Shown: piece by piece, positions 13 through 53,433 of the stretch
How the letters are laid out: every line of letters begins with the position of its first letter
How positions within the stretch are numbered: position 1 is the stretch's first letter
DNA from: an uncultured archaeon
Lineage (GTDB): Archaea; Aenigmatarchaeota; Aenigmatarchaeia; QMZP01
Length of the DNA: 64,000 nucleotides
Direction of reading: 5' to 3'
NCBI GenBank assembly: GCA_964498245.1
Contig: CAZCGK010000002.1
Location: 6,133 to 70,132, forward strand
The notes under the pieces: model-generated
Seen by the model: only the letters and a program-made list of their open reading frames with translations
Database searches by the model: none
What the model was told of the DNA's origin: nothing
Program-made: the position numbers and the translations under genes

Positions 13-201
13 GTGAAAGAGAACCATGAAATAACAAAAATGATAATTCAGAGAGCACTTTTCTCTACCGATTCTACTATTACACAGGATATAGAGGAAA
101 AGGAGATTGAAGAACTTCTGAAAGAACTCGAAAAGGAAGAAGATGAGGATGTTAAAGAAATAATAAAGGAGATTGAAGATGAAAATAAAAAGGGAGAATG
201 A
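13..201 (+). CDS. hypothetical acidic protein, possibly the 3' part of a gene starting upstream of the window
   Basis: The ORF begins with GTG at 13 and the frame stays open back to position 1. The product is Glu/Lys-rich with no recognisable motif. Confidence 0.25.
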   Translation: MKENHEITKMIIQRALFSTDSTITQDIEEKEIEELLKELEKEEDEDVKEIIKEIEDENKKGE

Positions 202-406
202 CAGAATAATATTACATCTTCACAAAGATCTTTACAAGAGTGATTCCATTGATAAAGCGATAGAAGATTTTGCACACCTTTGTAAAATAAAATCAGGCGA
301 AAACGAAAAGTATTTTTTGATCGAATTTGCAGGGGCAGAGGAATTGGAAGAATTGGTTATGGAGTTTGCAAATTATGTACTATCTCTTTTGAAAATTTCA
401 GGGTGA
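173..406 (+). CDS. small hypothetical protein upstream of the rSAM maturase; possible accessory component (HxsD-like or RRE-like) of the peptide-modification cluster
   Basis: A 77-aa ORF lies 4 nt upstream of the rSAM gene on the same strand. It has no catalytic motifs, so its role is inferred from context only. Confidence 0.3.
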   Translation: MKMKIKRENDRIILHLHKDLYKSDSIDKAIEDFAHLCKIKSGENEKYFLIEFAGAEELEELVMEFANYVLSLLKISG

Positions 407-410
407 GTAA

Positions 411-1820
411 ATGCCAGAAAAATACGGAATACTTCCCTATTCCTCATGTAAAATGAATGATGGTTTTCTGATAACCACAATTACAGGTTCTTGGTGTTAT
501 CTCACCTCTAAGGAATTTGCTATGCTTCAAAAAAAACACATAGAAGCAACACTTTACAGAAAACTTGTTGATAGCGGAATCATCATCACAGAAAAAAATG
601 CCAATGCAATTATAACAGAATACAGGCAGATGAACAGGTTTCTTTTTCAGGGACCTTCACTTCATATAGTGGTTCCAACCTTGAGATGCAATCATGAATG
701 TGTTTACTGTCATGCTAAACCGCCTGATGAAAGATACAGCGATATGGATAAAAAAACGGCAATAAATGTTCTTGATTTTATTTTCAGCACCGAAAGTCCG
801 TGTATAGCAATAGAGTTTCAAGGGGGAGAACCTCTATTAAATTGGGATATGGTAAGGTTCATAATAGATGAAGCTAACAGAATTAACGATGAATACGAAA
901 AAAAGGACCTTGAATTACGTCTTGTAACAAATCTTACCGTGATGGATGATGAAAAACTTGAATTTTTACTGGGTGTGAAGAATGCATATATCTGTACATC
1001 ACTTGATGGTCCGGAGACGGTTCATAACAAGAACAGAAAATATAGAGGAGGTGGTGAGACATACAGCGATGTCGTAAAATGGATTGAAAAAATAAAGGAA
1101 AGGTGTAACAGAATAAATGCAATACCCACAATAACCAGATACTCCCTGCCTTATTGGAGAGAGATAATAGATGAATATGTCAAGCACGGATTTGATACAA
1201 TTCATCTAAGATTTCTCAACAAATTAGGTGCTGCCATGAGAAATTGGAATGAAATTTCATACACACCTGAGGAATTTTTACATTTCTGGAAACAATCTCT
1301 TGAGTATATACTGGAACTTAACAAACAGGGTATAAAACTTAAGGAAAGAACAGCAGAAATAATGCTCACAAAGATTCTGGAAAGAAAAGACCCCGGATAT
1401 ACAGAGCTTATGAGTCCATGTGGTGCAGGAAGAACTCAGCTTCTCTACAACTACAACGGTGATATATATACATGTGATGAGGGTAGAATGCTGGGTAATG
1501 ATCTTTTCAAACTGGGAAATGTGAATAAAAACAAATACAGGGATATTGTAAGAAGCGATAATTTTATTGGTATATGTCATGCATCGATTCTCGATAACTA
1601 TTGCGGAGACTGTGTTTTCAAACCTTACTGCGGAACCTGTCCTGTAATGAACTATGTTGAACAAGGAACGCTCGTACCGAAAATAAGAGAAACGATGAGG
1701 TGCAATATATATAAGGAGCAGTTTTTATATTTATTTAACAAGATAATAAATGATGAAGAAGCTTTAGAAGTATTCAAGGGATGGGTGCATGAAGGAGAAT
1801 GTAAAAAAGAAACTACCTGA
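411..1820 (+). CDS. radical SAM/SPASM-domain peptide maturase-like enzyme (HxsB-like candidate)
   Basis: It has the CNHECVYCH CxxxCxxC motif about 90 aa from the N-terminus, a GGEP motif, and a C-terminal Cys cluster (CGDCVFKPYCGTCP) typical of SPASM/twitch auxiliary clusters. About 90 aa precede the core, which could be an RRE-like recognition domain. Confidence 0.75.
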   Translation: MPEKYGILPYSSCKMNDGFLITTITGSWCYLTSKEFAMLQKKHIEATLYRKLVDSGIIITEKNANAIITEYRQMNRFLFQGPSLHIVVPTLRCNHECVYCHAKPPDERYSDMDKKTAINVLDFIFSTESPCIAIEFQGGEPLLNWDMVRFIIDEANRINDEYEKKDLELRLVTNLTVMDDEKLEFLLGVKNAYICTSLDGPETVHNKNRKYRGGGETYSDVVKWIEKIKERCNRINAIPTITRYSLPYWREIIDEYVKHGFDTIHLRFLNKLGAAMRNWNEISYTPEEFLHFWKQSLEYILELNKQGIKLKERTAEIMLTKILERKDPGYTELMSPCGAGRTQLLYNYNGDIYTCDEGRMLGNDLFKLGNVNKNKYRDIVRSDNFIGICHASILDNYCGDCVFKPYCGTCPVMNYVEQGTLVPKIRETMRCNIYKEQFLYLFNKIINDEEALEVFKGWVHEGECKKETT

Positions 1821-2040
1821 AATAAAAAAAAATATAAAAGATTTTATATCCGATGAAAGTGGTTTTGTTTCCAAGGAGAAGATACTTAAAGCAAGTTTTG
1901 CAGTCGGTTTTGCAACTCTCGCTCTTGTAAATACAGCAGCAGCAGATCATACATCACATACAAACAGCATTTCGGGAAGTTTTTCCGGAAGTACTGTTAC
2001 CGGTTCACATACACATCACGGAAGTCATTCAAGTTACTGA
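1789..2040 (+). CDS. candidate RiPP precursor / His-Xaa-Ser repeat peptide (HxsA-like) with a Sec-type signal segment
   Basis: This 83-aa ORF lies immediately downstream of the rSAM gene and overlaps its stop. It has a Lys-rich N-terminal leader and a hydrophobic stretch ending in AAA|D. The C-terminal core DHTSHTNSISGSFSGSTVTGSHTHHGSHSSY is rich in His-Xaa-Ser/His-Xaa-Xaa triplets. Confidence 0.5.
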   Translation: MKENVKKKLPEIKKNIKDFISDESGFVSKEKILKASFAVGFATLALVNTAAADHTSHTNSISGSFSGSTVTGSHTHHGSHSSY

Positions 2041-2898: not shown

Positions 2899-3999
2899 AT
2901 GATTCGACCTGAAAACAATCGCATAGATAAATATCTCTTAAGGGAGTATCTGAAAGAGATAGCAAAGGTTGTGAATTTTTATCAAGGTATAGACGATTAT
3001 TCGGAATACATAAAAAACTTTGAAAATATATTCTGCAAATATATCAATGCAAAACATGCCAAAGCGGTAAATTCGGGAACGGATGCCCTGCAGATATCGC
3101 TTATTTCTTTGGGTATAAAAAGGGGAGATGAAGTAATAGTTCCGGACCTTACATACATATCTACCGGACTTGCCGTGATATATTCCGGTGCGAAACCTGT
3201 GTTTGTAGATGTTAAAAAGGAAGATTTAACAGTTGATGAAAACAAACTCGAGAATGCAATAACAGAAAAAACCAAAGCAATAATCCCTGTTCATATGTTC
3301 GGACATCCGTGCAATATGAAAGTTATAGCAGAAATAGCAGAAAAGCATGATCTGAAGATTATAGAGGACTGTTGTCAGGCGTTTTCCTGCAAAATAAACG
3401 AAAGAATGGTAGGAACGTTCGGTGATGCATCTGCTTTCAGTTTTTCTTATTACAAACCGCTTTCCTCCCTATCTGGTAACGGAGGGATGATAGTGTTTAG
3501 AGATTCAGGACTTGCAAGAAGTATAGAAGATTTGATAAAACTCTGGAAATGTAATGATTTGCTAAAGGTGAGCGGTAGAAAATTTCACAAAATCTCTCTT
3601 GTAGATGTAGCAACGATCCTTGTAAAATTGAAAAACTTCAGGTTGATAGAAAAATCCAGAAAAGAAGCCCAAAAACTTTACAGAGAAAATCTGGAAGAGG
3701 TAGAAGAAATTGAAATTCCAAGTGAAAGAAAAGGTAGAGCCTCTATAATGGAGAATTTTGTGATACTCGTCGAAAAGAGGGATAAACTGATAGAATATCT
3801 GAACAGGAAGGGAATAAAAATAGAACATCCCTACAGACCACTACATACCATAAAGATGTTCGGTTACAAAGCAAAACCTCAGGAATTTTCTGTAACAGAG
3901 AGGTATTATCAAAAAGGGCTTCATTTGCCTTTGTACAGTCTCATGAAACCAGAAGAGGTTGAAAAGGTAACAGAAGCTATCATACATTTTTATTCCTAA
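2899..3999 (+). CDS. DegT/DnrJ/EryC1/StrS-family PLP-dependent sugar aminotransferase
   Basis: It has the GTDALQ motif, the small-domain SFSYYKP PLP-lysine region, and a length of about 366 aa typical of the family. Confidence 0.8.
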   Translation: MIRPENNRIDKYLLREYLKEIAKVVNFYQGIDDYSEYIKNFENIFCKYINAKHAKAVNSGTDALQISLISLGIKRGDEVIVPDLTYISTGLAVIYSGAKPVFVDVKKEDLTVDENKLENAITEKTKAIIPVHMFGHPCNMKVIAEIAEKHDLKIIEDCCQAFSCKINERMVGTFGDASAFSFSYYKPLSSLSGNGGMIVFRDSGLARSIEDLIKLWKCNDLLKVSGRKFHKISLVDVATILVKLKNFRLIEKSRKEAQKLYRENLEEVEEIEIPSERKGRASIMENFVILVEKRDKLIEYLNRKGIKIEHPYRPLHTIKMFGYKAKPQEFSVTERYYQKGLHLPLYSLMKPEEVEKVTEAIIHFYS

Positions 4000-5143
4000 G
4001 CCTTTGCAATTTCTTGTCTATTTCCTTATTAAATTTTATTAAAGGACAGTATCTGCATTCTATCCAGAAATCGTTATCCGTATTTATTTCATATTTGTAT
4101 TTAATTCTGGCTTGATGAAATTTATCAGAATTCCATATTTCTATCAATCTATTACGGTATATGTTACCTACCAAAAACTGCTGATGGTTGCAACAAGGAA
4201 ACACATTCCCGTTGATATCTATATGAACATAATACCATCCAGTGTAGCACCTTATATTATTGGAGGCAAGTGTATTCAAATAAAAGAATCTATTATAACA
4301 AGCATTCTCAAATTGCACAGTTTTTCTGTCGCAATTTATAGACCTTTTAATAATATCAAGCACTTCATATAAGTTTGTTCTGTATTTATATTCTCTTTGA
4401 GCTTTCAACAATTTCTCTATTAACAATTTTAATTCTTTCATTTCCTTAGGTGAAAGTATTAGTGAAGATGTATCGCTATTAGCTTGCATGAGTTTGAACT
4501 CTACATATTCTATACCAAATTTTGAACATATTTTGAGCATTTTGTCTATATCTTTGAAATTATACTTGTTCAAGATGTATACAATATGAACAACAGGTTT
4601 ATTCAGTTTTAATTTATTCTTGCTTTTAATTTCATAGAGAAACTTCAAATTTTTTAAAACCCTGTAAAACATTTTATCAGAGCCACCTGCTTGTAGAAAC
4701 CCGTGTTTTTTTGGTGAAACTGCAGAAAGATTTACCCTTATTAAATCAATTTCTAGCATATGTTTCAAATGCTTAGGATGAATGCTGAGATTTGTATCTA
4801 TCATTACCCTTATGTCACTTTTCTTTGCATATTTTATCATCTTAAAAATATCTGGATGCAGAGTAGGTTCTCCCTCTCCTAAAATAGATATCTGCTCCAC
4901 TCCCATGATACGGGAATCATCCACAATTTCTTTAAATTTTTCAAAAGGAAGTGCTTTTTTCTTTTTGCTTTTTTTGACAAATTTCGAATGATACCAGCAA
5001 AATACACATTTGAAATTGCAGAATGAATTTACATGGAGCTTTACGCATCTAGGTCCTACAAAAACCTTATCCAGATATGCACCAAGAAGCCTTAGACTTT
5101 CTGGGGATGCATTATATTTTTGATACCTTTCTATAAACTCCAT
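3980..5143 (-). CDS. radical SAM protein with a C-terminal SPASM/twitch-like Cys cluster
   Basis: It has the CNFKCVFCW CxxxCxxC motif and a GEGEP motif. The C-terminal Cys motifs CCNHQ...CRYCP are SPASM/twitch-like. Confidence 0.75.
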   Translation of the reverse strand: MEFIERYQKYNASPESLRLLGAYLDKVFVGPRCVKLHVNSFCNFKCVFCWYHSKFVKKSKKKKALPFEKFKEIVDDSRIMGVEQISILGEGEPTLHPDIFKMIKYAKKSDIRVMIDTNLSIHPKHLKHMLEIDLIRVNLSAVSPKKHGFLQAGGSDKMFYRVLKNLKFLYEIKSKNKLKLNKPVVHIVYILNKYNFKDIDKMLKICSKFGIEYVEFKLMQANSDTSSLILSPKEMKELKLLIEKLLKAQREYKYRTNLYEVLDIIKRSINCDRKTVQFENACYNRFFYLNTLASNNIRCYTGWYYVHIDINGNVFPCCNHQQFLVGNIYRNRLIEIWNSDKFHQARIKYKYEINTDNDFWIECRYCPLIKFNKEIDKKLQRLRNKNV

Positions 5144-6185
5144 ACCACTCCCTTATTTCTCTTTCAGGATTGAAATGCTTTTTAACAGTCATATATCCAT
5201 TCTGTCCAAGGGAATACATTTTTTCTCTGTTATTGTAAATTTCAATTAGTTTTTCATATATTTCTTCACCAGAAAACGGCTCAACAAGCAGACCGTTGTA
5301 TTCGTGTTTTATTATCTCTTCTGTTCCGCCAACCCTTGTGGCTATCACGGGAATGCCAAGAGACATCGCTTCAAGAACCGCATTGGGAAAACCCTCAAAC
5401 AGAGAGACCTGCACATAAACATCAAACATCTGCATCTCCTTCAAAACATCTTCATGTTTCATCACACCTTTTATTACAATTTTGTGTTTGATACCGGTTT
5501 TTTCCACGGCTTTTAAAAAATTAGAATTATCCGTTTTGCTTGCTCCGATCAGGACAAGTCTAGAATCCGGAATCTTGCTTGCAAATACTTTAAATGCATC
5601 CAAAAGATATTTCCAGCCTTTCAGCTTTCTTATATCACCTAAATATGAAACGTTTCCCACGATGAATTCTTTGCTTCTTTTTCTCTTACAATTTGGAATT
5701 TCAACGGAATTGTTTATAACTTCTGTTCGGGTTTTTCTTCCTGTAATTTTTTCAAATATCTTTAGATGCATTTTGCTAACAGAAACAATATATTTAGCAT
5801 TTTTTGCGACAATGTTACAAACATCAGAAATGGTGTTTAAAATATGGGAACCTCTCAAACCCACGATTGAGGGTTTGTCCAATAGGGAAGCTGCCTTTAC
5901 AGCAATCAAACCATCCGGCTCTATATCAAAACCGTGAATCACATCAAAATCCAATCTCTCATCAAGCCTTTTAATCACCTCAACAGCATTGTTTTCGAAA
6001 TGATTTAGTCTGTAGATAAAAACTCTATTGTTCTTCTGAAATTTGCTTCCACCCCTTCCGGTTATAATATGAAATTCGATTCCTTTGTATCTCTTTACCA
6101 TTCCGTTTACAATCCTTTTTAGCGATACGCTCCTTCCACCAAGTGGTTGCGTGCTGAAATCATTGGAGATGATGCATATTCTCAT
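5112..6185 (-). CDS. glycosyltransferase family 4 (GT-B, retaining)
   Basis: The C-terminal EGFPNAVLEAMSLGIPVIAT E-x7-E motif is typical of GT4. Confidence 0.8.
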   Translation of the reverse strand: MRICIISNDFSTQPLGGRSVSLKRIVNGMVKRYKGIEFHIITGRGGSKFQKNNRVFIYRLNHFENNAVEVIKRLDERLDFDVIHGFDIEPDGLIAVKAASLLDKPSIVGLRGSHILNTISDVCNIVAKNAKYIVSVSKMHLKIFEKITGRKTRTEVINNSVEIPNCKRKRSKEFIVGNVSYLGDIRKLKGWKYLLDAFKVFASKIPDSRLVLIGASKTDNSNFLKAVEKTGIKHKIVIKGVMKHEDVLKEMQMFDVYVQVSLFEGFPNAVLEAMSLGIPVIATRVGGTEEIIKHEYNGLLVEPFSGEEIYEKLIEIYNNREKMYSLGQNGYMTVKKHFNPEREIREWYGVYRKVSKI

Positions 6186-6916
6186 TTTATTCCTCCTGCT
6201 TCGCTCAGCCTTAGAAACTCTGCACCAGTTTTTAGCAAGTACTTCAAAAATATTGCAAGATTTTTGAACCCGTCTGCATCAAAGACATGATGATGCATGT
6301 ATATGCCTATTACAGGCATGGTTTCTCTAAGTAAAATGAATTTTGCTATCACATCTCTGATATTTGAATTTTCCAGACAAAGCGATACCGGTACAAAGGA
6401 AAAACCATATTTTTTCATATCGAATTTTGCTGGTTTTTTGGCTGAGAATATTTTGAAGCCCAGAATATCAACAGCCTTTAAAGTGTTCTCATCATATTTA
6501 TGGTATGGCGGTGTGAATGCAGGTATGAAGTCCCTCTTAAAAAAATTTTCCATAATCTCTTTGCCCCTTTCTATCTCCTCTCTCTGTTTTTCATAAATCC
6601 TTCCGAAGAATTCAAACTTTATCATTTCACTGCCGTAATTCTTATGTATGTATCCATGCTGACCATATTCTATCAGCTCAGGATTTTCTTCCTTAATCCA
6701 CCTGAGCCTTTTTGCAGATTCCTCTGTAAGTTTTCCCGGTATTACAGCATGGTGAATTGGTATTTTCTTTTTGATAAAAATTCTGGATAGTGTCATAAAC
6801 TTTTTGTCTGCATCAAACACATCATCATTTCTAAAAAACACCTTGATCGTGTCCATTTCATTCACATATTTTTTTAAGTCCACGATACAAATTCTCGAGA
6901 CCATTATACCATTCAT
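6182..6916 (-). CDS. putative polysaccharide deacetylase-like protein (divergent)
   Basis: It has FRNDDV and HGYIH motifs reminiscent of a NodB-type metal site. The assignment is tentative. Confidence 0.4.
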   Translation of the reverse strand: MNGIMVSRICIVDLKKYVNEMDTIKVFFRNDDVFDADKKFMTLSRIFIKKKIPIHHAVIPGKLTEESAKRLRWIKEENPELIEYGQHGYIHKNYGSEMIKFEFFGRIYEKQREEIERGKEIMENFFKRDFIPAFTPPYHKYDENTLKAVDILGFKIFSAKKPAKFDMKKYGFSFVPVSLCLENSNIRDVIAKFILLRETMPVIGIYMHHHVFDADGFKNLAIFLKYLLKTGAEFLRLSEAGGIK

Positions 6917-8003
6917 TTTTTATCTTTACATGCATATTTTTCTCAATCTGCTTTTTTATTTCCTCAGCTATTTTCTCAGGTGAAAGTTTATCATATCTTA
7001 TCACAGAGGAACCTAACAAATCCTTCATCATTCTTGCACGGGATACCTGCTCCATCTCTTTCATATAGGGAATGAGCACGGCTTTTTTTCTAAACCACAT
7101 TGTTTCAACAGATGTATTGTAACCGCACATGCTTACGGACACATCGCACATACTCAAATAATCTGTAAACTCTGCATTCGGAAGAAAGCTGAAGGTTTTT
7201 ACATTTTTGAATCCTTTTGAAAGTTTATCAAATATATTTATCTCTTTTTTGGTAGATGCAGGACCATAGCATACAAACATGAAATATTCATTTCCCAAAA
7301 ACCTCAGAGACATTATAGATTTTGCTATTATACCGGGATAAACCACACCACCACCTCTACTCACAAGTACAATCTTCTTATGCATTTCACGCTTGATTTT
7401 TTTCTTTTCTTTCTCTGAAAACACATAACCTGTGAAGATAATCTTTCCTTTCAATTTTCTAAAAAAATTGACATATTCCTCTGCTTTCTCTTTTAATGCT
7501 ACTTTCATATATTCGTATTCAATTTCTGGTGTATGAATAAAAAGCCTGTCAAAGCCTTTAGAATATTCAAGTATTTCTTCTGTTCTGTTCAAATCTAACG
7601 CAGGATATCCTATGGATGCGCATATCTTGGTTTCGGGCATGGTTTTTCTCATCCAGAGGATGAAGGGATAAAGCTCATACTTCCCTTCGGATCTTCCGAA
7701 GGGAAAAAACTCTGTTAAGAAAAGATCCGGTTTGAACCTTTTCACAATGCTTTTCATGATAAAAAGCCTTTTTCTTATTTTTCCCGTATCCAAGGGCATT
7801 CCAGCTCTGTAAAACTCCCTTCTATCCCGGAGCGGATAAGGAAGGTTCACAATCTCTATATCCGAAAAATCCACATCCTGCTTCTTTCCGCCGTTGAGAA
7901 TGAGAATTTGAGTTCCTTTGCTTTGCAAACACCTCGCTATTCTCAGTGTTCTTGTGGTATGTCCCAGGGTTTCCCTGTGAGTATAATACATCATTATTTT
8001 CAT
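6858..8003 (-). CDS. GT-B fold glycosyltransferase (GT1/GT28-like)
   Basis: It has a two-domain size of about 380 aa and the N-terminal YYTHRETLGHTTR motif. It is translationally coupled to the flanking genes. Confidence 0.5.
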   Translation of the reverse strand: MKIMMYYTHRETLGHTTRTLRIARCLQSKGTQILILNGGKKQDVDFSDIEIVNLPYPLRDRREFYRAGMPLDTGKIRKRLFIMKSIVKRFKPDLFLTEFFPFGRSEGKYELYPFILWMRKTMPETKICASIGYPALDLNRTEEILEYSKGFDRLFIHTPEIEYEYMKVALKEKAEEYVNFFRKLKGKIIFTGYVFSEKEKKKIKREMHKKIVLVSRGGGVVYPGIIAKSIMSLRFLGNEYFMFVCYGPASTKKEINIFDKLSKGFKNVKTFSFLPNAEFTDYLSMCDVSVSMCGYNTSVETMWFRKKAVLIPYMKEMEQVSRARMMKDLLGSSVIRYDKLSPEKIAEEIKKQIEKNMHVKIKNEWYNGLENLYRGLKKICE

Positions 8004-8959
8004 ATAATATCCCTATTGCAGCCTTTCAAAAAACCATGATAGGATAGGCATTTCGGACATTTTCCCTTTAGTGCTTTTTCGATCACAGCTTTTCTCTTTC
8101 CTTCCTCTACAATTCCGGTATGGATGTTACCTACAGGGTCCTGATAAAGACAGGGAAAAATATTACCTCGGGAATCGATAAATAGGGATGTTTTTGGTGT
8201 GAGGCACTTTTTTATAAAATTCAGGTCTGGGTTTTCTGTAAACTTCACAAGTTGCACAATCCATAAATTGTTTTTACCCTTGTATTTATCCTTTAGAATT
8301 TTTAACAGATCTATTTTGGTGTGTTTCAGTTCTCTTCGAGAAAGCTGTATAATCTTGGTTTCTTTTATACGATGATAATACCTGCTTAAATACTCACCAA
8401 ATTTAGGTTCGAAAAAACAACCAAGTTTTTTAGCTAATTCATAAATACTGTAAAGATCCTTATAATTAAGCTTGGTTATTACTGTTTTTATCGAAATCGG
8501 TATAAAAGGATATCTCCTTTTTATCATTCGAATGGTTTTTACTGTTTTTTGAAATGCATTATTCATACCGCGCTGAAGATTATGGGTCTCCTTTAAACCG
8601 TCAAGGCTTATCCCAAATTCCGTACCATGAAGAATAGCTTTACTGTTTTTCAGAAATTCAAGGATTTTTTCTGTGGCATAACCATTTGTCGTAATGTTTA
8701 TAGATATTACCCTTTTCTTGATATATAAAAAATAGAGATATCTGTATATTTTTTCAAATTCCGGGTGAAGAAAACACTCACCTCCTGTGAGAGAGATAGA
8801 AAGCCTGTTTTCAAATTTGCTGACAAAACTCAAAATATTCACCAAATCCAGATCATTTATTTCCCTTTCCTTCCATATACTGCACATTCTACATTTAAGA
8901 TTACATCTATTGGTTATTTCAAATGTAAGGTTTTTTACATCCTCTAAACATTTACTCAT
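8000..8959 (-). CDS. radical SAM protein with a SPASM/twitch-like C-terminal Cys cluster
   Basis: It has a CNLKCRMCS CxxxCxxC motif near the N-terminus and C-terminal CLYQ...CPKCLSY cysteines. Confidence 0.7.
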   Translation of the reverse strand: MSKCLEDVKNLTFEITNRCNLKCRMCSIWKEREINDLDLVNILSFVSKFENRLSISLTGGECFLHPEFEKIYRYLYFLYIKKRVISINITTNGYATEKILEFLKNSKAILHGTEFGISLDGLKETHNLQRGMNNAFQKTVKTIRMIKRRYPFIPISIKTVITKLNYKDLYSIYELAKKLGCFFEPKFGEYLSRYYHRIKETKIIQLSRRELKHTKIDLLKILKDKYKGKNNLWIVQLVKFTENPDLNFIKKCLTPKTSLFIDSRGNIFPCLYQDPVGNIHTGIVEEGKRKAVIEKALKGKCPKCLSYHGFLKGCNRDII

Positions 8960-10272
8960 TCCACCACCAGCGGATCCTCTGCATAATAGCTACCAAAAAC
9001 CTTTTTTGCCATGGTTCTGCTCCCACCTTTGCATACAGGATAGATTTCGCATACTTTACATCTTTCAGGAAGATACTCAAGATTCCTCAGTTTTTTCATT
9101 AGAGTGCTGTTCCATGCAGCATTTATATTTTTCCACGTACCTGCAACATCATCCGAATAATAAACAGGTTTCACATCACCGTTTACAGATATTACCATTC
9201 TATCCCTTCCATCATCCATAAAACCACCCAGGGAAAACACTCGTGCAGTAAAACCTTCTCCAAGAAAACAAAACGGAAAAGCGTTTGTTATCACACTTCG
9301 TGTTCCAAATTTTTCGTAAAATTTTAATGAATGATTGAAAAAGGAACAGAGAGACTTTTTTTCAGCCTCCGCATGAATTAATCGATAGTTTTCATGAACG
9401 AGCCCGAGCTTTTTCTTGATAAGAAGAAATATATCGAAAAGCGAATCACGATTTTTTTCATTGATAACAGTCCCTGCTCTCAGAAATATCCGAGGATTGA
9501 TTCTTTTTATTTTCAGAACGGTTTTGAGCTTATTTTTGAAACTGTAAGGATTTCCTGTGATTTTGGCTTCCCCTTTGGGTGTAGAGTGATGAAGAGGAAT
9601 GAGAACAGAATCTGTATGTTTTATTATATCAGTGTAATGTTTGTTATCCGTAAATGTTCCGTTGGAATTTATCCATACCTCCATTTTAAGTGATTTTGCA
9701 TATTTAACATAGTTGTATAAATTTGAATCCATAAAAGGTTCTCCGCCGGTGAATCTTATTCTCCTGATACCCATTTTATATGCTTGATTTATTACCGAAA
9801 AAACCACTTCCGAATCTATGAATTCATAATCATGTTTTGGAGAAAAACAAAAAAAGCAATTAAGATTGCATTTTGATGTTATCTCTATTGAAATTTCTTT
9901 AGGCAGATCCTTTACCGGCTCTGGGTTATTAGAAAAATCTTCTGGAAAACCTGCACAAAATCTGTTGAATTTACACTCTTTACACTGTGGAGATTTTGTT
10001 TTGTGGTTGCTCGATATATTTATTATATGCTCTTCTGCATCAGGGAGTATGCAGTAGGGAAGGTTAAAGAATATCATGCTCGTTTTTTCTTCAAATCTAT
10101 TAATGAGTGTATAAAGTACGGACCTGATTTTGAAAAAATCAGGAGGATTCTTGCTATCAAAGATTACATCAACCAGAGGTATATTTCGAGTTTCAAGCAG
10201 CTTGATTAAAGAGATGAGATTTTTCACATTTTTTTTGTTTATTTGCAGTGTGAGTTTTTCGGAATTCAGCAT
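8956..10272 (-). CDS. radical SAM/SPASM protein with an N-terminal extension of about 130 aa
   Basis: It has a CNLNCFFCF CxxxCxxC motif, a GGEP motif, and a C-terminal CKVCEIYPVCKGG cluster. Its N-terminal extension contains a CKECKFNRFC motif. Confidence 0.7.
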   Translation of the reverse strand: MLNSEKLTLQINKKNVKNLISLIKLLETRNIPLVDVIFDSKNPPDFFKIRSVLYTLINRFEEKTSMIFFNLPYCILPDAEEHIINISSNHKTKSPQCKECKFNRFCAGFPEDFSNNPEPVKDLPKEISIEITSKCNLNCFFCFSPKHDYEFIDSEVVFSVINQAYKMGIRRIRFTGGEPFMDSNLYNYVKYAKSLKMEVWINSNGTFTDNKHYTDIIKHTDSVLIPLHHSTPKGEAKITGNPYSFKNKLKTVLKIKRINPRIFLRAGTVINEKNRDSLFDIFLLIKKKLGLVHENYRLIHAEAEKKSLCSFFNHSLKFYEKFGTRSVITNAFPFCFLGEGFTARVFSLGGFMDDGRDRMVISVNGDVKPVYYSDDVAGTWKNINAAWNSTLMKKLRNLEYLPERCKVCEIYPVCKGGSRTMAKKVFGSYYAEDPLVVE

Positions 10273-10289
10273 ACTTAACCAATCTATTT

Positions 10290-10310
10290 TTGGAAAATAT
10301 ATAAGTATTA
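10290..10310. promoter_or_regulatory. candidate bidirectional archaeal promoter (TATA-like AAAATATATAAG) between the divergent rSAM operon and the surface-protein gene
   Basis: An AT-rich TATA-like element sits about 25-30 bp upstream of both divergent start codons (10272 minus strand, 10330 plus strand). This suggests leaderless transcripts. Confidence 0.25.
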
Positions 10311-10329
10311 GAAGTAAAAAATAAAAAGT

Positions 10330-13300
10330 ATGAAACAGGTGACCATTTCACTAATTGTTTGCATATTTTCCTTCCTGATTCTTCTGCAACTGAGCGCTGC
10401 AGAAACTCTGACTTGTTATATAAAAGACCCTTCAGGAACTGCTATACGAAGCAGTCAAACTACCTTTGGATTCTATACAAGTGCAACATATACATGTTCA
10501 GCATCATGCCCTTCTTCGGATTCTTCATGTTGCCAGAAAGAAGGACAATACACTTGGCAGGTGGTTTCAAGTTATGACGGAAGCACAGTTTCAGGAAATG
10601 CATACTATGTCAACTGGGATGGTTCCTCTACCTGGTGCTCTTGTCATGGTGATACTTGGGTAAGCAGCGTTTCCAAGTGCTGTGGTGATGATGGTTCAGC
10701 TGATGATTGGTGTGCTGGTGGATATACAAGTTGTTATGATGGTGTTTACTATACAGATGGTGATTCAAATTCCTATACATGTTCCTGTGGCGGAGGTTAT
10801 TGGAACATAGGTGGTGAAGTTGCTGGAAGTTCTTGTTGCGGTGATGATTCAGGAGAGTACAGAAGAACACGCCAGGCTGGAACAGATTCCACATATTCAT
10901 CCGATTCTAACGATGATGCGTGTTGCAATGCAAACAACAAATGTGTATATAATTCTGTATGTTACGCTTCTACTTCAACGTTAGGCTCGATACCCAATAA
11001 GAATTACTGTGATAACGGTGTTTGGGTAGGCGGAGATGCTTCTGAAACAGCCTGCACAGCAATTGCTGGTTCAGGAAGGTGGAGTATAGGCGGAGAAGTG
11101 GCTGCCACAACATGCTGTGGTGATGATTCTGGTGAAAATTACAGGATATGCCAAGATAATAATGAAGGATATTGCGCCAGATCGAGTGATAATACTGCAT
11201 GTTGCGATTCACAATATGATTGTGTATTTGATGATACATGCTATTCTTCTGGAACTGTGCAAGGACAGTGGAGGTGCGAATCCGGGACATGGCATGATTT
11301 TATACCACCTGTTACAACGGATGATGCAACCAGTACATGGACGAATACGGATCAAATAGTCACATTAACCTGTGATGATGATGCAGGTTCAGGCTGTGAT
11401 ACAGTCAGATACTGTATAGGTTCAAATACATGCACTCCAGAAATAACAGAATATGATATTTCAAGTGGTTCTTACAAGGTCTCTGTGACATGCCCAGCCG
11501 GTTCGGTATGCAAACAGTATGTAAGATACCAGTCAAAGGATAAGGCAGGAAACTGGGAAGATATTAAAACCTCAGCAGAAACGAGAATAGATAAAGAAAA
11601 ACCAACAACTTCCATAAAACTTTCCGGAGTCGAAGGGGATAATGGCTGGTATGTATCTGATGTTACGGTGACACTTTCTTGTGATGACGGTAGCGGTTCA
11701 GGCTGTAGTGAGACTTACTATTGTGTGGACCAATCTGATTCCTGTACACCAAGCGTGAAATACACAGGACCATTTTTAATTTCAAATGAAGATATAAACT
11801 ATGTTCGATATCATTCAAAGGATAATGTTGGGAATGTAGAAGATGTTAAATCCACCGAAGTCAAAATAGATAAGACACCACCAACAGCATGGATAAACCC
11901 TCTTCCTGAATGGACGAATTCAAGTGATGGTTCTGGTGATGTATATTTTGATGTATACTGGAATGGAGATGATGGACCTACCGGTTCAGGAATAACGAGT
12001 TACAGCATTCAGTATATAATATACAACAGAGCAACTGGAAATTATGTCACAAATAACTGCGGAACAGCTGATTGGTGTGATTGGATTACAAGGGATGAAA
12101 CAGATCCGAAACAGGAAATATTTGGTCTTCTGGACAATCCCGAAAATGTAGAGGCATTCAACAATCACACATTTCTTTTCAGAATAAGTGCAAAGGATAA
12201 TGCAGGAAATGTAATGGATTATTCTATAAACCCACCCTGGGAAAATACATCTATCGATGTGGTTTCTCCTGTAAGCGCAATATCTACTGTATCCTATCCA
12301 GGAGAACTCATAGTAGAGGCTTTCTGGCAGGGTTGGGATAATGAATCAGGAGTAGCATACTATGATGTTCAAAGCAATATGAGCGGCTCTTGGGATTATC
12401 TCACAGATACAGACGGAAACAGTACATATCATACTACAAAAACTTCAGGTAATTTCAGTGTTTCATCCGATGGAATTTACTATTTCAGGGTAAGAGCAGT
12501 AGATAGAGCAGGAAATGTAGAAACCCCCTGGAAATACAGCTCGGTTCTTGTGGATGTTTCACCTCCTGTTGCTTGGATGGAAGAGCCCTATAATGAATGG
12601 ATGAAATTTTATAATTTCACTGTAAATTGGTCCGGATACGATACAGGTAGTCCACCTTCTGGAATCAAATGTTACGATGTTCAGTGGAGTAATGATACGA
12701 TAAACTGGAACTATATCCAATACAATGAATTTGGTGATTTGACAGAGTGTGTACTTCTAACGGAAACCATATTCGGCCTTTACGGATTTACTGATTTAAA
12801 AGATGGCATTACATACTATTTCAGAGTTAGAGCTACAGACAATAATGGAAATATCGGTAACTGGAGTGTGAAAAACACAACAATAGATACGTATTCTCCC
12901 GTTATTATAGTTAACGTAACAGACGATAAAGGAAGAGAGATAATAGAAGGCTATGTTCCAGCAGATGTAAAAAACATTACCATAACCTCAATGGCATGGG
13001 ACAACATTTCAGGTATAAAAAAGCATACCATTCACTATTGGCTCACTCAAAACAACAAATACACATACGGTGAAAAGGAATGCGGCGAAGCACTACCATG
13101 GGGAGATTGGAGTAACTGTTCCATAACCTTTGCTTATGATGAAGACACGGTGATCAAATATTATGTGAAGGCAGAGGACAGAGCAGGAAATGTAAATACA
13201 ACACCGATAAGGTTTACAACCTCTCACCCCCTTGCAAATTTTGTAATTCACCAGGCAGCTATCGGTTTGGGAGATTCAATTCTTCTTAAAGTTCAGGTGA

Positions 13301-13662
13301 GAAACATCCAAGAAACCGTGGACAATATAACCATATCCATTGAAAGCACGATCACCTCAGCAAAACCAAAATTTGAAAATATAGGCTCTGGAGATTTTGA
13401 AATTCAGGCAGACGGAAAGGTCTTACAAGTTTATAACTTAAATCCAATGGAAGAAAGAGAATTTTTTGTGAGAATATATTCCAGCGAGATAGGGACCTAT
13501 TATCTGAACATGACAGCTCAATCAAACGTTGCACAGCCGGGTCTTATTGATACAGACAGTGCAAAAATAATTATCGGTTATCCCCCTTCATTCCCCGGTC
13601 TTGCACCATGGAGTATTCTCCTGCTTGTAATACTTTCGGTTACGATTTTCTTAATTATTTAA
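10330..13662 (+). CDS. large secreted Cys-rich surface protein with Ig-like repeats and a C-terminal PGL+TM sorting-like tail
   Basis: It has a signal peptide and N-terminal about 330 aa with repeated CCGDDSGE/CCGDDGS Cys motifs. These are followed by repeated (F/Y)R(V/I)(R/S)A(x)D(x)AGN(V/I) Ig-like/FN3-like modules. The C-terminus is PSFPGLAPWSILLLVILSVTIFLII. Confidence 0.65.
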   Translation: MKQVTISLIVCIFSFLILLQLSAAETLTCYIKDPSGTAIRSSQTTFGFYTSATYTCSASCPSSDSSCCQKEGQYTWQVVSSYDGSTVSGNAYYVNWDGSSTWCSCHGDTWVSSVSKCCGDDGSADDWCAGGYTSCYDGVYYTDGDSNSYTCSCGGGYWNIGGEVAGSSCCGDDSGEYRRTRQAGTDSTYSSDSNDDACCNANNKCVYNSVCYASTSTLGSIPNKNYCDNGVWVGGDASETACTAIAGSGRWSIGGEVAATTCCGDDSGENYRICQDNNEGYCARSSDNTACCDSQYDCVFDDTCYSSGTVQGQWRCESGTWHDFIPPVTTDDATSTWTNTDQIVTLTCDDDAGSGCDTVRYCIGSNTCTPEITEYDISSGSYKVSVTCPAGSVCKQYVRYQSKDKAGNWEDIKTSAETRIDKEKPTTSIKLSGVEGDNGWYVSDVTVTLSCDDGSGSGCSETYYCVDQSDSCTPSVKYTGPFLISNEDINYVRYHSKDNVGNVEDVKSTEVKIDKTPPTAWINPLPEWTNSSDGSGDVYFDVYWNGDDGPTGSGITSYSIQYIIYNRATGNYVTNNCGTADWCDWITRDETDPKQEIFGLLDNPENVEAFNNHTFLFRISAKDNAGNVMDYSINPPWENTSIDVVSPVSAISTVSYPGELIVEAFWQGWDNESGVAYYDVQSNMSGSWDYLTDTDGNSTYHTTKTSGNFSVSSDGIYYFRVRAVDRAGNVETPWKYSSVLVDVSPPVAWMEEPYNEWMKFYNFTVNWSGYDTGSPPSGIKCYDVQWSNDTINWNYIQYNEFGDLTECVLLTETIFGLYGFTDLKDGITYYFRVRATDNNGNIGNWSVKNTTIDTYSPVIIVNVTDDKGREIIEGYVPADVKNITITSMAWDNISGIKKHTIHYWLTQNNKYTYGEKECGEALPWGDWSNCSITFAYDEDTVIKYYVKAEDRAGNVNTTPIRFTTSHPLANFVIHQAAIGLGDSILLKVQVRNIQETVDNITISIESTITSAKPKFENIGSGDFEIQADGKVLQVYNLNPMEEREFFVRIYSSEIGTYYLNMTAQSNVAQPGLIDTDSAKIIIGYPPSFPGLAPWSILLLVILSVTIFLII

Positions 13663-13664
13663 AA

Positions 13665-13790
13665 CGCTGGGAGAGGGACTCGAACCCTCAAGCCCTTGCG
13701 GGCACACGCTGTCTGTTTTTCTATCATCTCACGCTGGGAACCACCCAGCATGACTCCAAGCGTGCTCCTTACCAATTCGGACATCCCAGC
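13665..13790 (-). tRNA. tRNA-Ser (anticodon GGA) with a roughly 42-nt intron after position 37 and a long variable arm
   Basis: Manual fold: acceptor GCTGGGA/TCCCAGC, 3-bp D stem, anticodon stem CACGC/GCGTG with loop TTGGAG[intron]A, variable arm TGCCCGCAAGGGCT, T arm GAGGG-TTCGAGT-CCCTC, discriminator G. No CCA is encoded. Confidence 0.65.
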
Positions 13791-16302: not shown

Positions 16303-17075
16303 ATGTTCAATTTTATTTTATAGCTTAAATAGATTATTAGAAGAATGATAAGCATTAAAATGATAATAAACGGAGCAAAAGCATCAGACCGAGATTTTTC
16401 CTTTTTCAGAAGGACTGTTTTCTTTTGAATGAAATTTCCGTCCTCTGTGATTAAAGTAAATTCAACAGAGGATTCCTTCCAGATCGATGGTCTGTACGGT
16501 ATTCTTGCTTTTTTTATCTGTCCGGAGTTCATGAAATCTATCCTTGCTGATTCCATTATCCAACCAACAGGGTATTTACTGGGAATTACAATCAGATTTT
16601 TGACATCCTGATTACTTCTTATGTAAATATCTATATAATCATCGAATGTATGAACATCTACTATTTCAAAATTACCGGCTTTGCTTTTCTTTGGTTTTCC
16701 TTCAAAATAATATGGACCGAATTTAAAAATCTCGTTGCAAAAATATATTCTTACATATACTGTATAGTTTCCCTCAGGCAGATTCGAGTAAATATCCATA
16801 TCAGCATGGCTCCCTGGCCATAAAGGCTTTGCCCTGCTCCAGCCTGTGTACACAAGTTTAGAAGTATTATAGAAATCTGCTCTTGCTCTTACCTCGCATC
16901 CAACAGAACCGATATTTTCCCATGTAATTGAGATTTTCTGGGGAGGCTTTGTGCTTATGTTTATCCATGCAAGACTTCCCTGTATTACACTTTCTACATT
17001 CACATCAACATCCAGAGCCGCAACTGCAGGTATTAAACCCATAACCAATAGAACAGTAAAAAATCTCACATTCAT
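16281..17075 (-). CDS. secreted protein with a C-terminal membrane anchor, hypothetical
   Basis: It has a signal peptide and a C-terminal TM segment. Confidence 0.45.
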   Translation of the reverse strand: MNVRFFTVLLVMGLIPAVAALDVDVNVESVIQGSLAWINISTKPPQKISITWENIGSVGCEVRARADFYNTSKLVYTGWSRAKPLWPGSHADMDIYSNLPEGNYTVYVRIYFCNEIFKFGPYYFEGKPKKSKAGNFEIVDVHTFDDYIDIYIRSNQDVKNLIVIPSKYPVGWIMESARIDFMNSGQIKKARIPYRPSIWKESSVEFTLITEDGNFIQKKTVLLKKEKSRSDAFAPFIIILMLIILLIIYLSYKIKLNIWRAGRD

Positions 17076-17103
17076 TTCACCACCCTTAACTTTTGATCTT
17101 TTT

Positions 17104-18084: not shown

Positions 18085-18195
18085 AGAATTATATACGAAT
18101 CAAATCAATAAAAATCTTGGAGACGGTTTTTTAAAGTTAACAAAGCAATCACTTACATGAAGATTTAAATATCACCTCGCCACTATATATATAAC

Positions 18196-19047: not shown

Positions 19048-19137
19048 GCAAGTAGAACGGTAATGACAAAACTGTTTATTTTATTCGTTAATTAGTTCAT
19101 TTATTTTTTTGTTTACTAAATAATTATTAGTGAAAAA

Positions 19138-20511: not shown

Positions 20512-20513
20512 TA

Positions 20514-26451: not shown

Positions 26452-26481
26452 ATTAGGAAATTACAAGGATGATTAATAAAA

Positions 26482-52899: not shown

Positions 52900-53433
52900 C
52901 TATACTTTTAAAGAAAACCACCTAAGCCATGCAAACCACAATCCAAGAACAAGCGATATAAGCCCGAACTGCCACAGAAAATCATGAAGAAACGAGGCTG
53001 TCTCCGGTCCGTAGGCAAGCCCTGCAAGGACCGCGCTAAATATTCTGAAAAGATTTGCAACCCAGATAACAGGCAACCCTGCAGCTATACCGTAAAATCT
53101 TTTCTTATTTTTCACAGCCGGAACCGCAAAAACCAGTGCTGAAAAAAACAGAAGGGACTTCCATCCAGTACAATCTTGATCTATCACAAAGGCAAAACCC
53201 ATATTATTCTCAGAAAACACTGAAAGATATGCGCCTTCTCTGGAAACATTCAAACCCGATACTCTCAACATAAACTCAATCTGTCCCGCAACGGTTAATT
53301 GCAGAGGATTCAGAATTTGAGAAAAGGTCAAAACTGCATACAGCGGAATAGAAAGAACAAGAAGACGCAAAAGAAAGATTAGTGTAAGTAGCATTCTTTT
53401 CTGAAGAGATGTGAGTTCAATTTTTTTCCACAT
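52900..53433 (-). CDS. exosortase/archaeosortase-family membrane protein
   Basis: It is polytopic with a candidate catalytic Cys in IDQDCTGWKS and a conserved Arg in NLFRIFS. Its size matches the short archaeosortases. Confidence 0.55.
   Translation of the reverse strand: MWKKIELTSLQKRMLLTLIFLLRLLVLSIPLYAVLTFSQILNPLQLTVAGQIEFMLRVSGLNVSREGAYLSVFSENNMGFAFVIDQDCTGWKSLLFFSALVFAVPAVKNKKRFYGIAAGLPVIWVANLFRIFSAVLAGLAYGPETASFLHDFLWQFGLISLVLGLWFAWLRWFSLKV

What the first reader, a model, noticed from the sequence alone, without database searches (positions are those of the whole stretch)
10330..13662. Cys-rich CCGDDSGE-repeat surface protein with a PGL-hydrophobic C-terminal tail; archaeosortase encoded 40 kb away
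The 1110-aa secreted protein begins with an about 330-aa region carrying repeated CCGDD(S/G) cysteine motifs. Repeated Ig-like modules with an AxDxAGN motif follow. It ends with PSFPGLAPWSILLLVILSVTIFLII, resembling a PGF-CTERM-type sorting signal (Pro-Gly-X followed by a TM helix at the extreme C-terminus). An exosortase/archaeosortase-family gene lies at 52900-53433. The Cys-rich head sits next to four radical-SAM/SPASM enzymes that typically act on Cys-containing substrates.
Basis: partly seen in the sequence, partly recalled or inferred. Interest (0 to 1): 0.6.

Follow-up and report, generated by a model that had tools for sequence, protein, structure and literature searches.

The report
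Archaeal surface protein with sorting tail
This gene encodes a large secreted cell-surface protein of a tiny DPANN archaeon; its cysteine-rich head is an undescribed domain, its conserved C-terminal tail is probably cut and lipid-anchored by a lineage-specific archaeosortase, and head-bearing genes of this kind regularly sit next to radical-SAM "His-x-Ser" peptide-maturation clusters.

Summary
ORF 10330-13662 encodes a 1110-aa secreted protein. It has 30 Cys in residues 26-335, three exact CCGDD motifs, OmpL47-type/Ig-like modules and the stated tail.

The tail matches no curated sorting-signal model. It is nevertheless the conserved end (YPxxFPGLxxW, TM helix, usually a basic end) of every ortholog at 26-45% identity. 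All 22 metagenome DNA matches to the motif lie at ORF C-termini.

ORF 52900-53433 is a real exosortase/archaeosortase-family protein with conserved Cys87/Asn126/Arg129/His149, but it passes no named subfamily cutoff. Relatives were found in 41 genomes, nearly all Aenigmatarchaeota. These include all three identifiable genomes that carry tail-bearing orthologs. In one genome a tail protein abuts the archaeosortase gene. The pairing is probable, not proven.

The radical-SAM idea is only partly right. One of the four enzymes is HxsB, flanked by an HxsD-like gene and its own His-x-Ser precursor. Even so, Hxs-type radical-SAM genes lie within 10 kb of CCGDD-head genes in 8 of 8 loci from several DPANN lineages, against 2 of 44 control loci.

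The head models confidently (pLDDT 91) and has no PDB analogue.

The parts
10330..13662 (+). Gene for the 1110-aa secreted surface protein (whole ORF)
10330..10401 (+). Sec-type signal peptide (aa 1-24)
   Evidence: read directly from the sequence
10405..11334 (+). Cys-rich head (aa 26-335): an N-terminal beta-sandwich followed by CCGDD repeats; an uncharacterised domain restricted to DPANN archaea
11335..11910 (+). Two OmpL47-type beta-barrel domains (aa about 336-527)
   Evidence: NF047446, 90 bits, 2 stretches
11911..13209 (+). Ig/FN3-like modules with the xDxAGN strand motif; 19 N-x-S/T sequons lie in aa 530-1060
13213..13575 (+). Conserved pre-tail domain (aa 962-1082, starts HPLANF); it precedes the tail in every tail-bearing protein found
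13576..13659 (+). C-terminal tail GYPPSFPGLAPW plus an 18-residue hydrophobic helix. This copy lacks the basic end seen in orthologs
52900..53433 (-). Short (177 aa) archaeosortase-family gene with DCTGWKS (Cys87), N126, R129 and H149; it fits no named subfamily
8956..10272 (-). Radical-SAM/SPASM-like enzyme (438 aa), divergent neighbour of the target. Orthologs sit next to the target's orthologs in L003 and L052 and are fused in L051
8000..8959 (-). Radical-SAM/SPASM enzyme (319 aa)
2899..8003 (.). Co-conserved block: DegT aminotransferase (2899-3999 +), rSAM/SPASM (3980-5143 -), GT4 (5112-6185 -), polysaccharide deacetylase/DUF2334 (6182-6916 -), GT28 (6858-8003 -)
173..2040 (+). Hxs-like module: HxsD-like (173-406), HxsB (411-1820), HxsA-like 83-aa precursor (1789-2040)

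Best explanation
The ORF encodes a Sec-exported, probably N-glycosylated, cell-envelope protein of an Aenigmatarchaeota-like DPANN archaeon. From the N-terminus it has: a signal peptide; a beta-sandwich plus disulfide-rich CCGDD repeats (the distal, exposed head); two OmpL47-type barrels; several Ig/FN3-like spacer modules; a conserved ~110-aa pre-tail domain; and a tripartite C-terminal signal (YPxxFPGLxxW, a TM helix, and in orthologs a short basic end). After export the TM helix holds the protein in the membrane. The lineage-specific 177-aa archaeosortase encoded 39 kb away (Cys87/Arg129 active site) then recognises the FPGL motif at the outer membrane face, removes the helix, and most likely transfers the protein to a membrane lipid, as ArtA does with PGF-CTERM substrates. 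Shown here: the architecture, the conservation and strictly C-terminal position of the motif, family membership and conserved residues of the archaeosortase, their co-occurrence, and one clean adjacency. Inferred: cleavage, lipid attachment, glycosylation and disulfides. The neighbouring radical-SAM genes belong to an Hxs-like peptide-maturation/sugar-modification cluster. That cluster is genomically coupled to CCGDD-head proteins but has its own precursor peptide.
For: Architecture. Tail conserved in orthologs and paralogs at 26-45% identity (P0013, 15, 16, 18, 22, 24, 30, 34). 'GYPPSFPGL' is among the three most conserved 9-mers of the last 290 aa (0.59 against a mean of 0.33), and F1088 and G1090 are invariant in 12 sequences. 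A tail HMM scores 50-69 bits on members and at most 11 bits on 4,554 other ORF ends. All 22 metagenome DNA matches to the motif fall at ORF C-termini, including 167-aa and 198-aa proteins and tandem pairs. Archaeosortase: TIGR04178 60.7 bits (cutoff 23), PF09721 56.8 bits (cutoff 25.7). T88/N126/R129/H149 are invariant and Cys87 is present in 8 of the 9 aligned homologs (P0002 has Ser there). 41 relatives were found, nearly all labelled Aenigmatarchaeota, and they include the three genomes (DAOVFN, CAYNRQ, CAZSLL) that carry the tail-bearing orthologs P0016, P0022 and P0018. In L019 a 695-aa tail protein starts where the archaeosortase ORF starts (divergent), and a second tail protein lies 5 kb away. 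Tail protein P0024 and archaeosortase P0004 come from the same sample, ERR15087788. The mechanistic analogy (tripartite signal, Cys/Arg catalysis, lipid anchoring by ArtA) comes from PMC6098224 and PMC9263693.
Against: No curated CTERM model recognises the window's tail. The nearest is PEF-CTERM at 19.1 bits (cutoff 23), and only on paralog P0034. This copy, and its 80-91% identical relatives, end at ...TIFLII with no basic residues, so the signal is not fully tripartite. The tail was never seen without the same ~110-aa preceding domain. It could therefore be part of an anchor module rather than a portable signal. Only 2 of 41 archaeosortase-centred loci contain a tail protein, and one of those adjacencies spans a 100-N scaffold gap and is not reproduced in a related contig. 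Co-occurrence in 3 of 3 genomes does not discriminate if both features are simply lineage-wide. No negative genomes were tested. The third ArtA catalytic residue (Arg253) could not be mapped.
Confidence: 0.6

Rival explanations
1. The tail is an ordinary permanent C-terminal transmembrane anchor. The FPGL-W motif is a structural hinge or interfacial cap of the conserved pre-tail domain, and the archaeosortase acts on other, unidentified substrates.
For: The tail is always attached to the same ~110-aa domain. No curated sorting-signal HMM matches it. This copy has no basic end. Neighbouring surface proteins in the window use plain TM-plus-basic anchors. The paralog P0056 uses a TM helix plus a long charged tail.
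Against: Plain anchors rarely keep an invariant F-P-G-[LI] with a fixed-spacing Trp across 26-45% identical proteins. No alternative recurrent C-terminal motif was seen near any of the 41 archaeosortase genes. Co-occurrence and the L019 adjacency also argue against it.
Confidence: 0.3
2. One reading: the adjacent radical-SAM/SPASM enzymes modify the Cys-rich CCGDD head before export, for example by forming Cys-to-Asp thioether cross-links of the sacti/ranthipeptide type.
For: Radical-SAM genes lie within 10 kb of CCGDD-head genes in 8 of 8 loci. In 6 of them (window, L003, L005, L051, L052, L054) they form a divergent cluster directly upstream; in L003 one short UDPG-dehydrogenase-like ORF intervenes. 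This compares with 2 of 44 control loci. Two tail-bearing paralogs without the head (L019) have no radical-SAM gene nearby. Every repeat carries Cys next to Asp. Secreted proteins can be radical-SAM substrates before export: HxsA (PMC13128918), and anaerobic sulfatase maturase, the latter from general knowledge.
Against: The clusters carry their own conserved small precursor with an HxsA-type leader, namely window 1789-2040 and the L051, L053 and L054 homologs. The surface protein starts directly with a signal peptide and has no such leader. HxsB is an equivalog-level match, 459.7 bits against a cutoff of 370. Three of the window's enzymes travel with DegT, GT28, GT4 and deacetylase genes, which suggests sugar chemistry. 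The head models at pLDDT 91 as a compact fold with paired Cys columns conserved, which fits ordinary disulfides.
Confidence: 0.12
3. The CCGDD-head surface protein is a non-substrate functional partner of the Hxs-like system. It could be the scaffold, receptor or anchor that presents the matured His-x-Ser peptide (or a modified glycan made by the cluster) at the cell surface, as part of an envelope barrier against viruses or an interface with host cells.
For: The same neighbourhood statistics apply. They recur in differently labelled DPANN lineages (Aenigmatarchaeota, Diapherotrites) and with different C-terminal architectures: FPGL tail, DUF2341 end, or no tail. The arrangement is divergent with a 57-bp intergenic gap in the window. 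Bacterial HXS acts in the envelope against phage DNA entry (PMC13128918).
Against: This rests on gene neighbourhood only. L003 and L052 lack HxsB, HxsD and HxsA within 10 kb, so the common denominator is loosely 'radical-SAM cluster'. L055 shows a non-radical-SAM gene directly upstream of a head-bearing ortholog, although only 0.95 kb is visible. The loci are not phylogenetically independent.
Confidence: 0.35

Closest known systems
Archaeosortase A / PGF-CTERM system (Haloferax volcanii S-layer glycoprotein)
   Same: A large glycosylated secreted surface protein; a short Pro-Gly-hydrophobic motif directly before a C-terminal TM helix; and a polytopic exosortase/archaeosortase-family enzyme with conserved Cys and Arg encoded elsewhere in the genome.
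   Different: The tail does not match the PGF-CTERM model. The enzyme scores 39 bits against the ArtA cutoff of 75 and is about 100 residues shorter. The motif is YPxxFPGLxxW. This copy has no basic end. The tail is always preceded by one particular domain.
Short archaeosortases/exosortases (ArtB with VPXXXP-CTERM, XrtH, XrtX, pacearchaeosortase)
   Same: Similar size (about 160-190 aa) and the best, though sub-threshold, HMM scores (XrtX 50.4, ArtB 49.6, XrtH 48.9). Like pacearchaeosortase, it is specific to a DPANN lineage.
   Different: All scores lie far below the curated cutoffs (170, 150, 86 and 80). The putative signal is different.
PEF-CTERM sorting domain (TIGR03024)
   Same: The paralog tail ...VPEFPGL... 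scores 19.1 bits, which is the nearest curated sorting-signal model.
   Different: That score is below the cutoff of 23. The window's own tail gives no hit. The archaeosortase scores only 20 bits on ArtC (cutoff 100).
HXS (His-Xaa-Ser) radical-SAM system, HxsA-D (bacterial antiphage system, PMC13128918)
   Same: The window encodes HxsB (459.7 bits, cutoff 370), an HxsD-like protein (67.1 bits, cutoff 41) and a small exported precursor ending in H-x-S repeats. L051 additionally has HxsC above cutoff.
   Different: The setting is archaeal. The gene order is D-B-A with no HxsC above cutoff in the window. The precursor is small with no peptidoglycan-binding domain and scores below the HxsA3 and HxsA4 cutoffs. 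The cluster is extended by extra radical-SAM, GT, DegT and deacetylase genes, and it is coupled to a giant CCGDD-head surface protein.
OmpL47-type beta-barrel / Big_13 / CHB_HEX_C surface-protein modules
   Same: The central modules with the xDxAGN strand match NF047446 above its cutoff.
   Different: These are generic building blocks of bacterial and archaeal surface proteins. They say nothing about the head or the tail.

Membership tests
Exosortase/archaeosortase superfamily (TIGR04178 / PF09721) | Score above the curated cutoff of the signature model | tested here: met
   TIGR04178 60.7 bits against 23; PF09721 56.8 bits against 25.7
Exosortase/archaeosortase superfamily (TIGR04178 / PF09721) | Conserved catalytic Cys and Arg (ArtA Cys173, Arg214; third residue Arg253) in a polytopic membrane protein | tested here: inconclusive
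   Cys87 (DCTGWKS), Asn126, Arg129 and His149 are conserved among 9 homologs. The equivalent of ArtA Arg253 could not be mapped because no ArtA sequence was at hand. The residues are taken from PMC9263693.
Named archaeosortase subfamilies ArtA-ArtF, pacearchaeosortase | Score above the subfamily cutoff | tested here: not met
   ArtA 39.1/75, ArtB 49.6/150, ArtC 20.1/100, ArtD 17.6/125, ArtF 26/150, pacearchaeosortase 29.3/80
PGF-CTERM and other curated CTERM sorting domains | Match to a curated sorting-domain HMM | tested here: not met
   There is no hit for the window tail at E<=10. Orthologs reach only sub-threshold scores: PEF-CTERM 19.1/23, IPTL-CTERM 13.5/20.5, Loki-CTERM 13.3/19.9. No Pfam hit.
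Archaeosortase-type sorting signal (generic definition) | Tripartite: a signature motif, a TM helix and a basic cluster at the extreme C-terminus | tested here: inconclusive
   The motif and helix are present. The basic cluster is present in orthologs but absent in this copy and its 80-91% identical relatives.
Archaeosortase-type sorting signal (generic definition) | The signal occurs on several proteins per genome and on different architectures | tested here: inconclusive
   Two tail proteins per locus occur in L019, L056, L058 and L065. Sizes range from 167 to 2071 aa, with or without the CCGDD head. All of them share the ~110-aa pre-tail domain.
Archaeosortase-type sorting signal (generic definition) | Phylogenetic co-occurrence with a dedicated sortase subfamily | tested here: inconclusive
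   3 of 3 identifiable genomes plus the window carry both features. There is one clean adjacency (L019). No negative genomes were examined.
Archaeosortase-type sorting signal (generic definition) | C-terminal cleavage and lipid attachment | not testable with these tools
   This needs proteomics or lipid labelling.
HXS system (HxsA/B/C/D) | HxsB radical-SAM/SPASM maturase | tested here: met
   Window 411-1820: TIGR03978 459.7 bits against 370
HXS system (HxsA/B/C/D) | HxsD or HxsD-like small protein | tested here: met
   Window 173-406: NF038315 67.1 bits against 41
HXS system (HxsA/B/C/D) | HxsA precursor with His-Xaa-Ser repeats | tested here: inconclusive
   Window 1789-2040 ends ...DHTSHTNS...GSHTHHGSHSSY. 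HxsA3 scores 42.2/65 and HxsA4 25.4/55, both below cutoff. The leader is conserved with the L051, L053 and L054 precursors.
HXS system (HxsA/B/C/D) | HxsC radical-SAM partner | tested here: not met
   The best window candidate (8956-10272) scores 67.3 against 267.9. HxsC is met in the related locus L051, 275.3 against 267.9.
Sacti/ranthipeptide-type radical-SAM substrate (for the Cys-rich head) | A leader or recognition sequence, and a dedicated maturase match | tested here: not met
   There is no leader before the signal peptide. PapB, SCIFF and CcpM models score far below their cutoffs on all four enzymes.

The most novel reading that the evidence does not exclude
In DPANN archaea, the rare CCGDD cysteine-rich head marks giant envelope proteins that are dedicated partners of an archaeal, expanded version of the HXS radical-SAM system. 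They could be scaffolds that display the matured His-x-Ser peptide or a cluster-made glycan, or they could themselves be radical-SAM substrates. In Aenigmatarchaeota these proteins would be fixed to the membrane by a previously unclassified archaeosortase that recognises an FPGL-type tail. Together this would form a surface barrier module, against viruses or for host contact, of a kind not yet described in archaea.
Probability: 0.3. Interest if true: 0.8.

Novelty: new variant of a known kind. Interest (0 to 1): 0.58.

Why it matters
DPANN archaea live attached to other cells, and their envelopes are almost uncharacterised. The finding matters for three reasons.

1. A lineage-specific archaeosortase with its own signal would show how their largest surface proteins are anchored. 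It would also give annotators a new signal/enzyme pair to model.

2. The CCGDD head is a confidently folding domain with no solved relative and only about 400 sequence clusters among 1.8 billion. That makes it a clean target for structural work.

3. HXS was shown only in 2026 to be an envelope-level antiphage system, and it was reported as essentially confined to Pseudomonadota. Recurrent archaeal Hxs-like clusters wired to giant surface proteins make two questions directly testable: what the archaeal versions do, and what their real substrates are.

Tried and rejected
1. NCBIfam and Pfam scans of the tail alone and of eight ortholog tails gave no hit above cutoff.

2. The large protein database was searched with a 12-sequence tail alignment. 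The first attempt was rejected as too short. The 52-aa version returned nothing at E<=1 although true members exist, so the tool is not suited to this query.

I worked around this with a 5-sequence alignment and a hand-made degenerate DNA pattern.

4. The adjacency of a tail protein to the archaeosortase in the scaffolded chromosome CP070801 (L034) is discounted. The junction is a 100-N gap, and the related contig L055 has a different 5' neighbour.

5. The second window protein ending APGVFPFW... (17104-18084) is not a member of the tail family.

6. A viral-contig scan for CCGDDSGE found only spurious short ORFs.

7. PADLOC gave only generic viperin-like radical-SAM similarity and has no HXS model.

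8. The afdb50 fold library was unavailable.

9. P0034 could not be located on a contig.

10. The paper defining the archaeosortase subfamilies (PMC3256604) is not held.
Full report
OBSERVATION

ORF 10330-13662 (+) is a complete 1110-aa reading frame. It starts with a Sec-type signal peptide.

Residues 26-335 hold 30 of the 47 Cys. CCGDD occurs exactly at aa 117, 169 and 262, and further CC pairs occur at aa 67, 198 and 291. A ~93-aa repeat is evident.

The [AS]xDx[AV]GN motif occurs five times. It lies in modules that match the OmpL47-type beta-barrel domain (NF047446, 90 bits against a cutoff of 40) and, weakly, Big_13/fn3. Nineteen N-x-S/T sequons all lie between aa 530 and 1060.

The protein ends GYPPSFPGLAPWSILLLVILSVTIFLII. 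The identical protein is on four public contigs. NCBI holds it only as a 725-aa fragment labelled 'Candidatus Aerophobetes bacterium' (P0011).

The window is archaeal. It carries intron-containing tRNAs and an aIF5B-type GTPase. Its ribosomal proteins are 54-64% identical to those of loci from the genomes that carry tail-bearing orthologs; one of these genomes (DAOVFN) is labelled Aenigmatarchaeota.

THE TAIL

No NCBIfam or Pfam sorting-domain model matches the tail, even at E<=10. The nearest is PEF-CTERM at 19.1 bits (cutoff 23), and that is on a paralog. It is therefore not a PGF-CTERM member.

It is nevertheless conserved. Homologs at 26-45% identity (P0013, P0015, P0016, P0018, P0022, P0024, P0030, P0034) end with [YF]P-x-x-F-P-G-[LI]-x-x-W, a hydrophobic helix, a conserved Tyr and a short basic end.

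- Across the last 290 residues of 12 proteins the mean column identity is 0.33. The stretch GYPPSFPGL reaches 0.59, and F1088 and G1090 are invariant.
- An HMM of 12 tails scores 50-69 bits on members and at most 11 bits on 4,554 other ORF ends.
- A degenerate DNA pattern for the motif found 22 metagenome loci. In all 22 the match lies at an ORF C-terminus, giving 23 tail ORFs in total. They range from 167 to 2071 aa, and several are tandem pairs.

Two caveats apply. Every tail protein also shares the ~110-aa domain that precedes the tail, aa 962-1082 in the window protein. And the window's copy, like its 80-91% identical relatives, stops before the basic end.

THE ARCHAEOSORTASE

ORF 52900-53433 (-), 177 aa, passes the exosortase/archaeosortase signature and the Pfam model. 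It is far below every named subfamily cutoff: XrtX 50/170, ArtB 50/150, XrtH 49/86, ArtA 39/75, pacearchaeosortase 29/80.

Among nine homologs, T88, N126, R129 and H149 are invariant. Cys87, in the motif DCTGWKS, is present in eight of the nine. In ArtA the critical residues are Cys173, Arg214 and Arg253 (PMC9263693).

A scan of species-representative genomes found 41 loci, nearly all labelled Aenigmatarchaeota.

LINK BETWEEN TAIL AND ENZYME

The three tail-bearing orthologs that could be traced to genomes are GCA_030672885 (DAOVFN), GCA_964399875 (CAYNRQ) and GCA_964607835 (CAZSLL). All three appear in the archaeosortase list, as L028, L042 and L047.

In L019, a 204-kb contig, a 695-aa tail protein (7869-9956, -) starts exactly where the archaeosortase ORF (9956-10516, +) starts. 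A second tail protein lies 5 kb away.

A further apparent adjacency in L034 spans a 100-N scaffold gap and is not reproduced in the related contig L055, so I discount it.

Overall, 2 of 41 archaeosortase-centred loci contain a tail protein. That is roughly what chance placement within 10 kb would give, so the support comes from co-occurrence plus one direct abutment. I rate the pairing at about 0.6.

THE RADICAL-SAM NEIGHBOURS

However:

- 411-1820 is HxsB (459.7 bits against 370).
- It is preceded by an HxsD-like gene (173-406; 67.1 bits against 41).
- It is overlapped at its end by an 83-aa ORF (1789-2040). This ORF has a charged leader, a hydrophobic segment and a C-terminus DHTSHTNS...GSHTHHGSHSSY. 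It scores below the HxsA3 and HxsA4 cutoffs but is homologous to precursors in three other loci.

The other three enzymes (3980-5143, 8000-8959, 8956-10272) are unclassified. In L003 and L052 their orthologs travel with DegT aminotransferase, GT28 and polysaccharide-deacetylase genes, again next to the ortholog of the surface protein.

The other loci show related arrangements:

- L051 has a full Hxs set next to P0030: HxsD, HxsD-like, HxsB at 479.7 bits, an HxsA4-like peptide, HxsC at 275.3 against 267.9, and three HxsC4-like enzymes.
- L005 has five or more HxsC4-like enzymes.
- L002 has one HxsC4-like enzyme two genes downstream.
- L054 is labelled Diapherotrites. There a 1874-aa CCGDD protein with a DUF2341 end and no tail has HxsD, four radical-SAM genes and a 131-aa HSS/CHSS-repeat precursor divergently upstream.
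- L053 has HxsD and radical-SAM genes 4-9 kb from a protein with nine CCGDD motifs.

So 8 of 8 head-bearing loci with usable flanks carry such genes. By the same criterion only 2 of 44 control loci (563 kb) do so. Fisher p is about 6e-8, but the loci are not phylogenetically independent. The two tail proteins in L019 that lack the head have no radical-SAM neighbour.

The coupling is therefore with the head, not the tail. Whether the head is a substrate is doubtful: the clusters carry their own precursor, and the surface protein has no leader. HXS is a bacterial envelope antiphage system in which HxsB and HxsC mature an exported HxsA. It was reported as 99.7% confined to Pseudomonadota (PMC13128918).

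THE HEAD

With a 26-sequence alignment, AlphaFold2 gives mean pLDDT 91.2 and pTM 0.75 for aa 26-340.

- Foldseek against the PDB finds nothing with E<0.5.
- Sequence searches of the PDB find nothing.
- No Pfam or NCBIfam model covers the head.
- A profile search of 1.84 billion representatives finds only 412 proteins at E<=1e-3 and 87 at E<=1e-30. Many are giant, up to 6834 aa with 16 copies of the domain.
- Where these proteins are named, they come from Aenigmatarchaeota, Diapherotrites, Nanoarchaeota and Undinarchaeales, and all are labelled 'hypothetical'.

A full-text search for 'CCGDD' found nothing relevant.

MECHANISM AND VERDICT

The most likely reading is a glycosylated envelope protein with its disulfide-rich head displayed distally. 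It would be anchored first by its C-terminal helix, then processed at the FPGL motif by the lineage-specific short archaeosortase and lipid-anchored, by analogy with ArtA (PMC6098224). Cleavage, lipidation, glycosylation and disulfides are all inferred.

The system works like an archaeosortase/CTERM pair but belongs to no curated subfamily or signal family. It is a new variant of a known kind.

It is the recurrent coupling of the CCGDD head with Hxs-type radical-SAM clusters across DPANN lineages.

Noticed in passing
window 173-2040: An archaeal Hxs-like module: HxsD-like (173-406), HxsB (411-1820) and an 83-aa His-x-Ser precursor (1789-2040). HXS was recently shown to be an antiphage system in bacteria and was reported as almost confined to Pseudomonadota.
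   Followed up: partly
window 13665-13790 (-): An intron-containing tRNA with a long variable arm (43.6 bits, above gathering). It begins 3 nt after the stop codon of the surface-protein gene. Both ARAGORN and the default Rfam scan of the whole window missed it. The same arrangement is present in the 80% identical ortholog locus L067.
   Followed up: partly
window 33836-33975 (+): A second intron-containing tRNA, found by Rfam (55.6 bits) but not by ARAGORN. This is consistent with an archaeal genome.
   Followed up: no
window 13864-28049: A run of further secreted or membrane-anchored proteins: 812 aa with CARDB/NEW3-like domains, then 264, 326, 457 and 276 aa proteins, and a 1707-aa NosD/beta-helix protein. 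They have plain TM-plus-basic anchors. None carries the FPGL tail.
   Followed up: partly
window 2074-2883 (+): A 269-aa protein with an N-terminal TM helix and a Cys-rich repeat region, lying directly after the HxsA-like gene. Weakly similar proteins occupy the same position in L051 (3320-3895) and lie between the two tail proteins in L019 (7095-7838). There are no family hits.
   Followed up: partly
P0011 (NCBI DRJ04_06900) = window 11488-13662: The only NCBI record of this protein is a 725-aa fragment starting at an internal Met and labelled 'Candidatus Aerophobetes bacterium'. The surrounding genes are archaeal, so this is probably a mis-binned contig with a truncated gene call.
   Followed up: no
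L012, L016, L017, L020, L022, L027, L030, L032 (about 9.3-9.9 kb, - strand, next to the archaeosortase): In many Aenigmatarchaeota loci a conserved ~195-aa polytopic membrane protein lies divergently next to the archaeosortase gene. It has only a sub-threshold hit to the cytidylyltransferase family (CTP_transf_1, 19.4 bits against 24). A lipid-synthesis partner would fit lipid anchoring, but this is unproven.
   Followed up: partly
L034 9468-9567: The 'complete chromosome' CP070801 has a 100-N gap inside the ortholog of the surface-protein gene, so about 730 codons of that gene are missing from the record.
   Followed up: yes
window 13576-13659: In this lineage the tail ends at ...TIFLII, without the Tyr-x4-Arg/Lys end that all more distant orthologs have. 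The tRNA gene abuts the stop codon, so the end of the gene may have been remodelled.
   Followed up: partly
L054 670-1065 (-): A Diapherotrites HxsA-like precursor that ends in about 12 HSS/CHSS repeats, which adds Cys to the His-x-Ser repeat. This is an unusual variant of the precursor.
   Followed up: no
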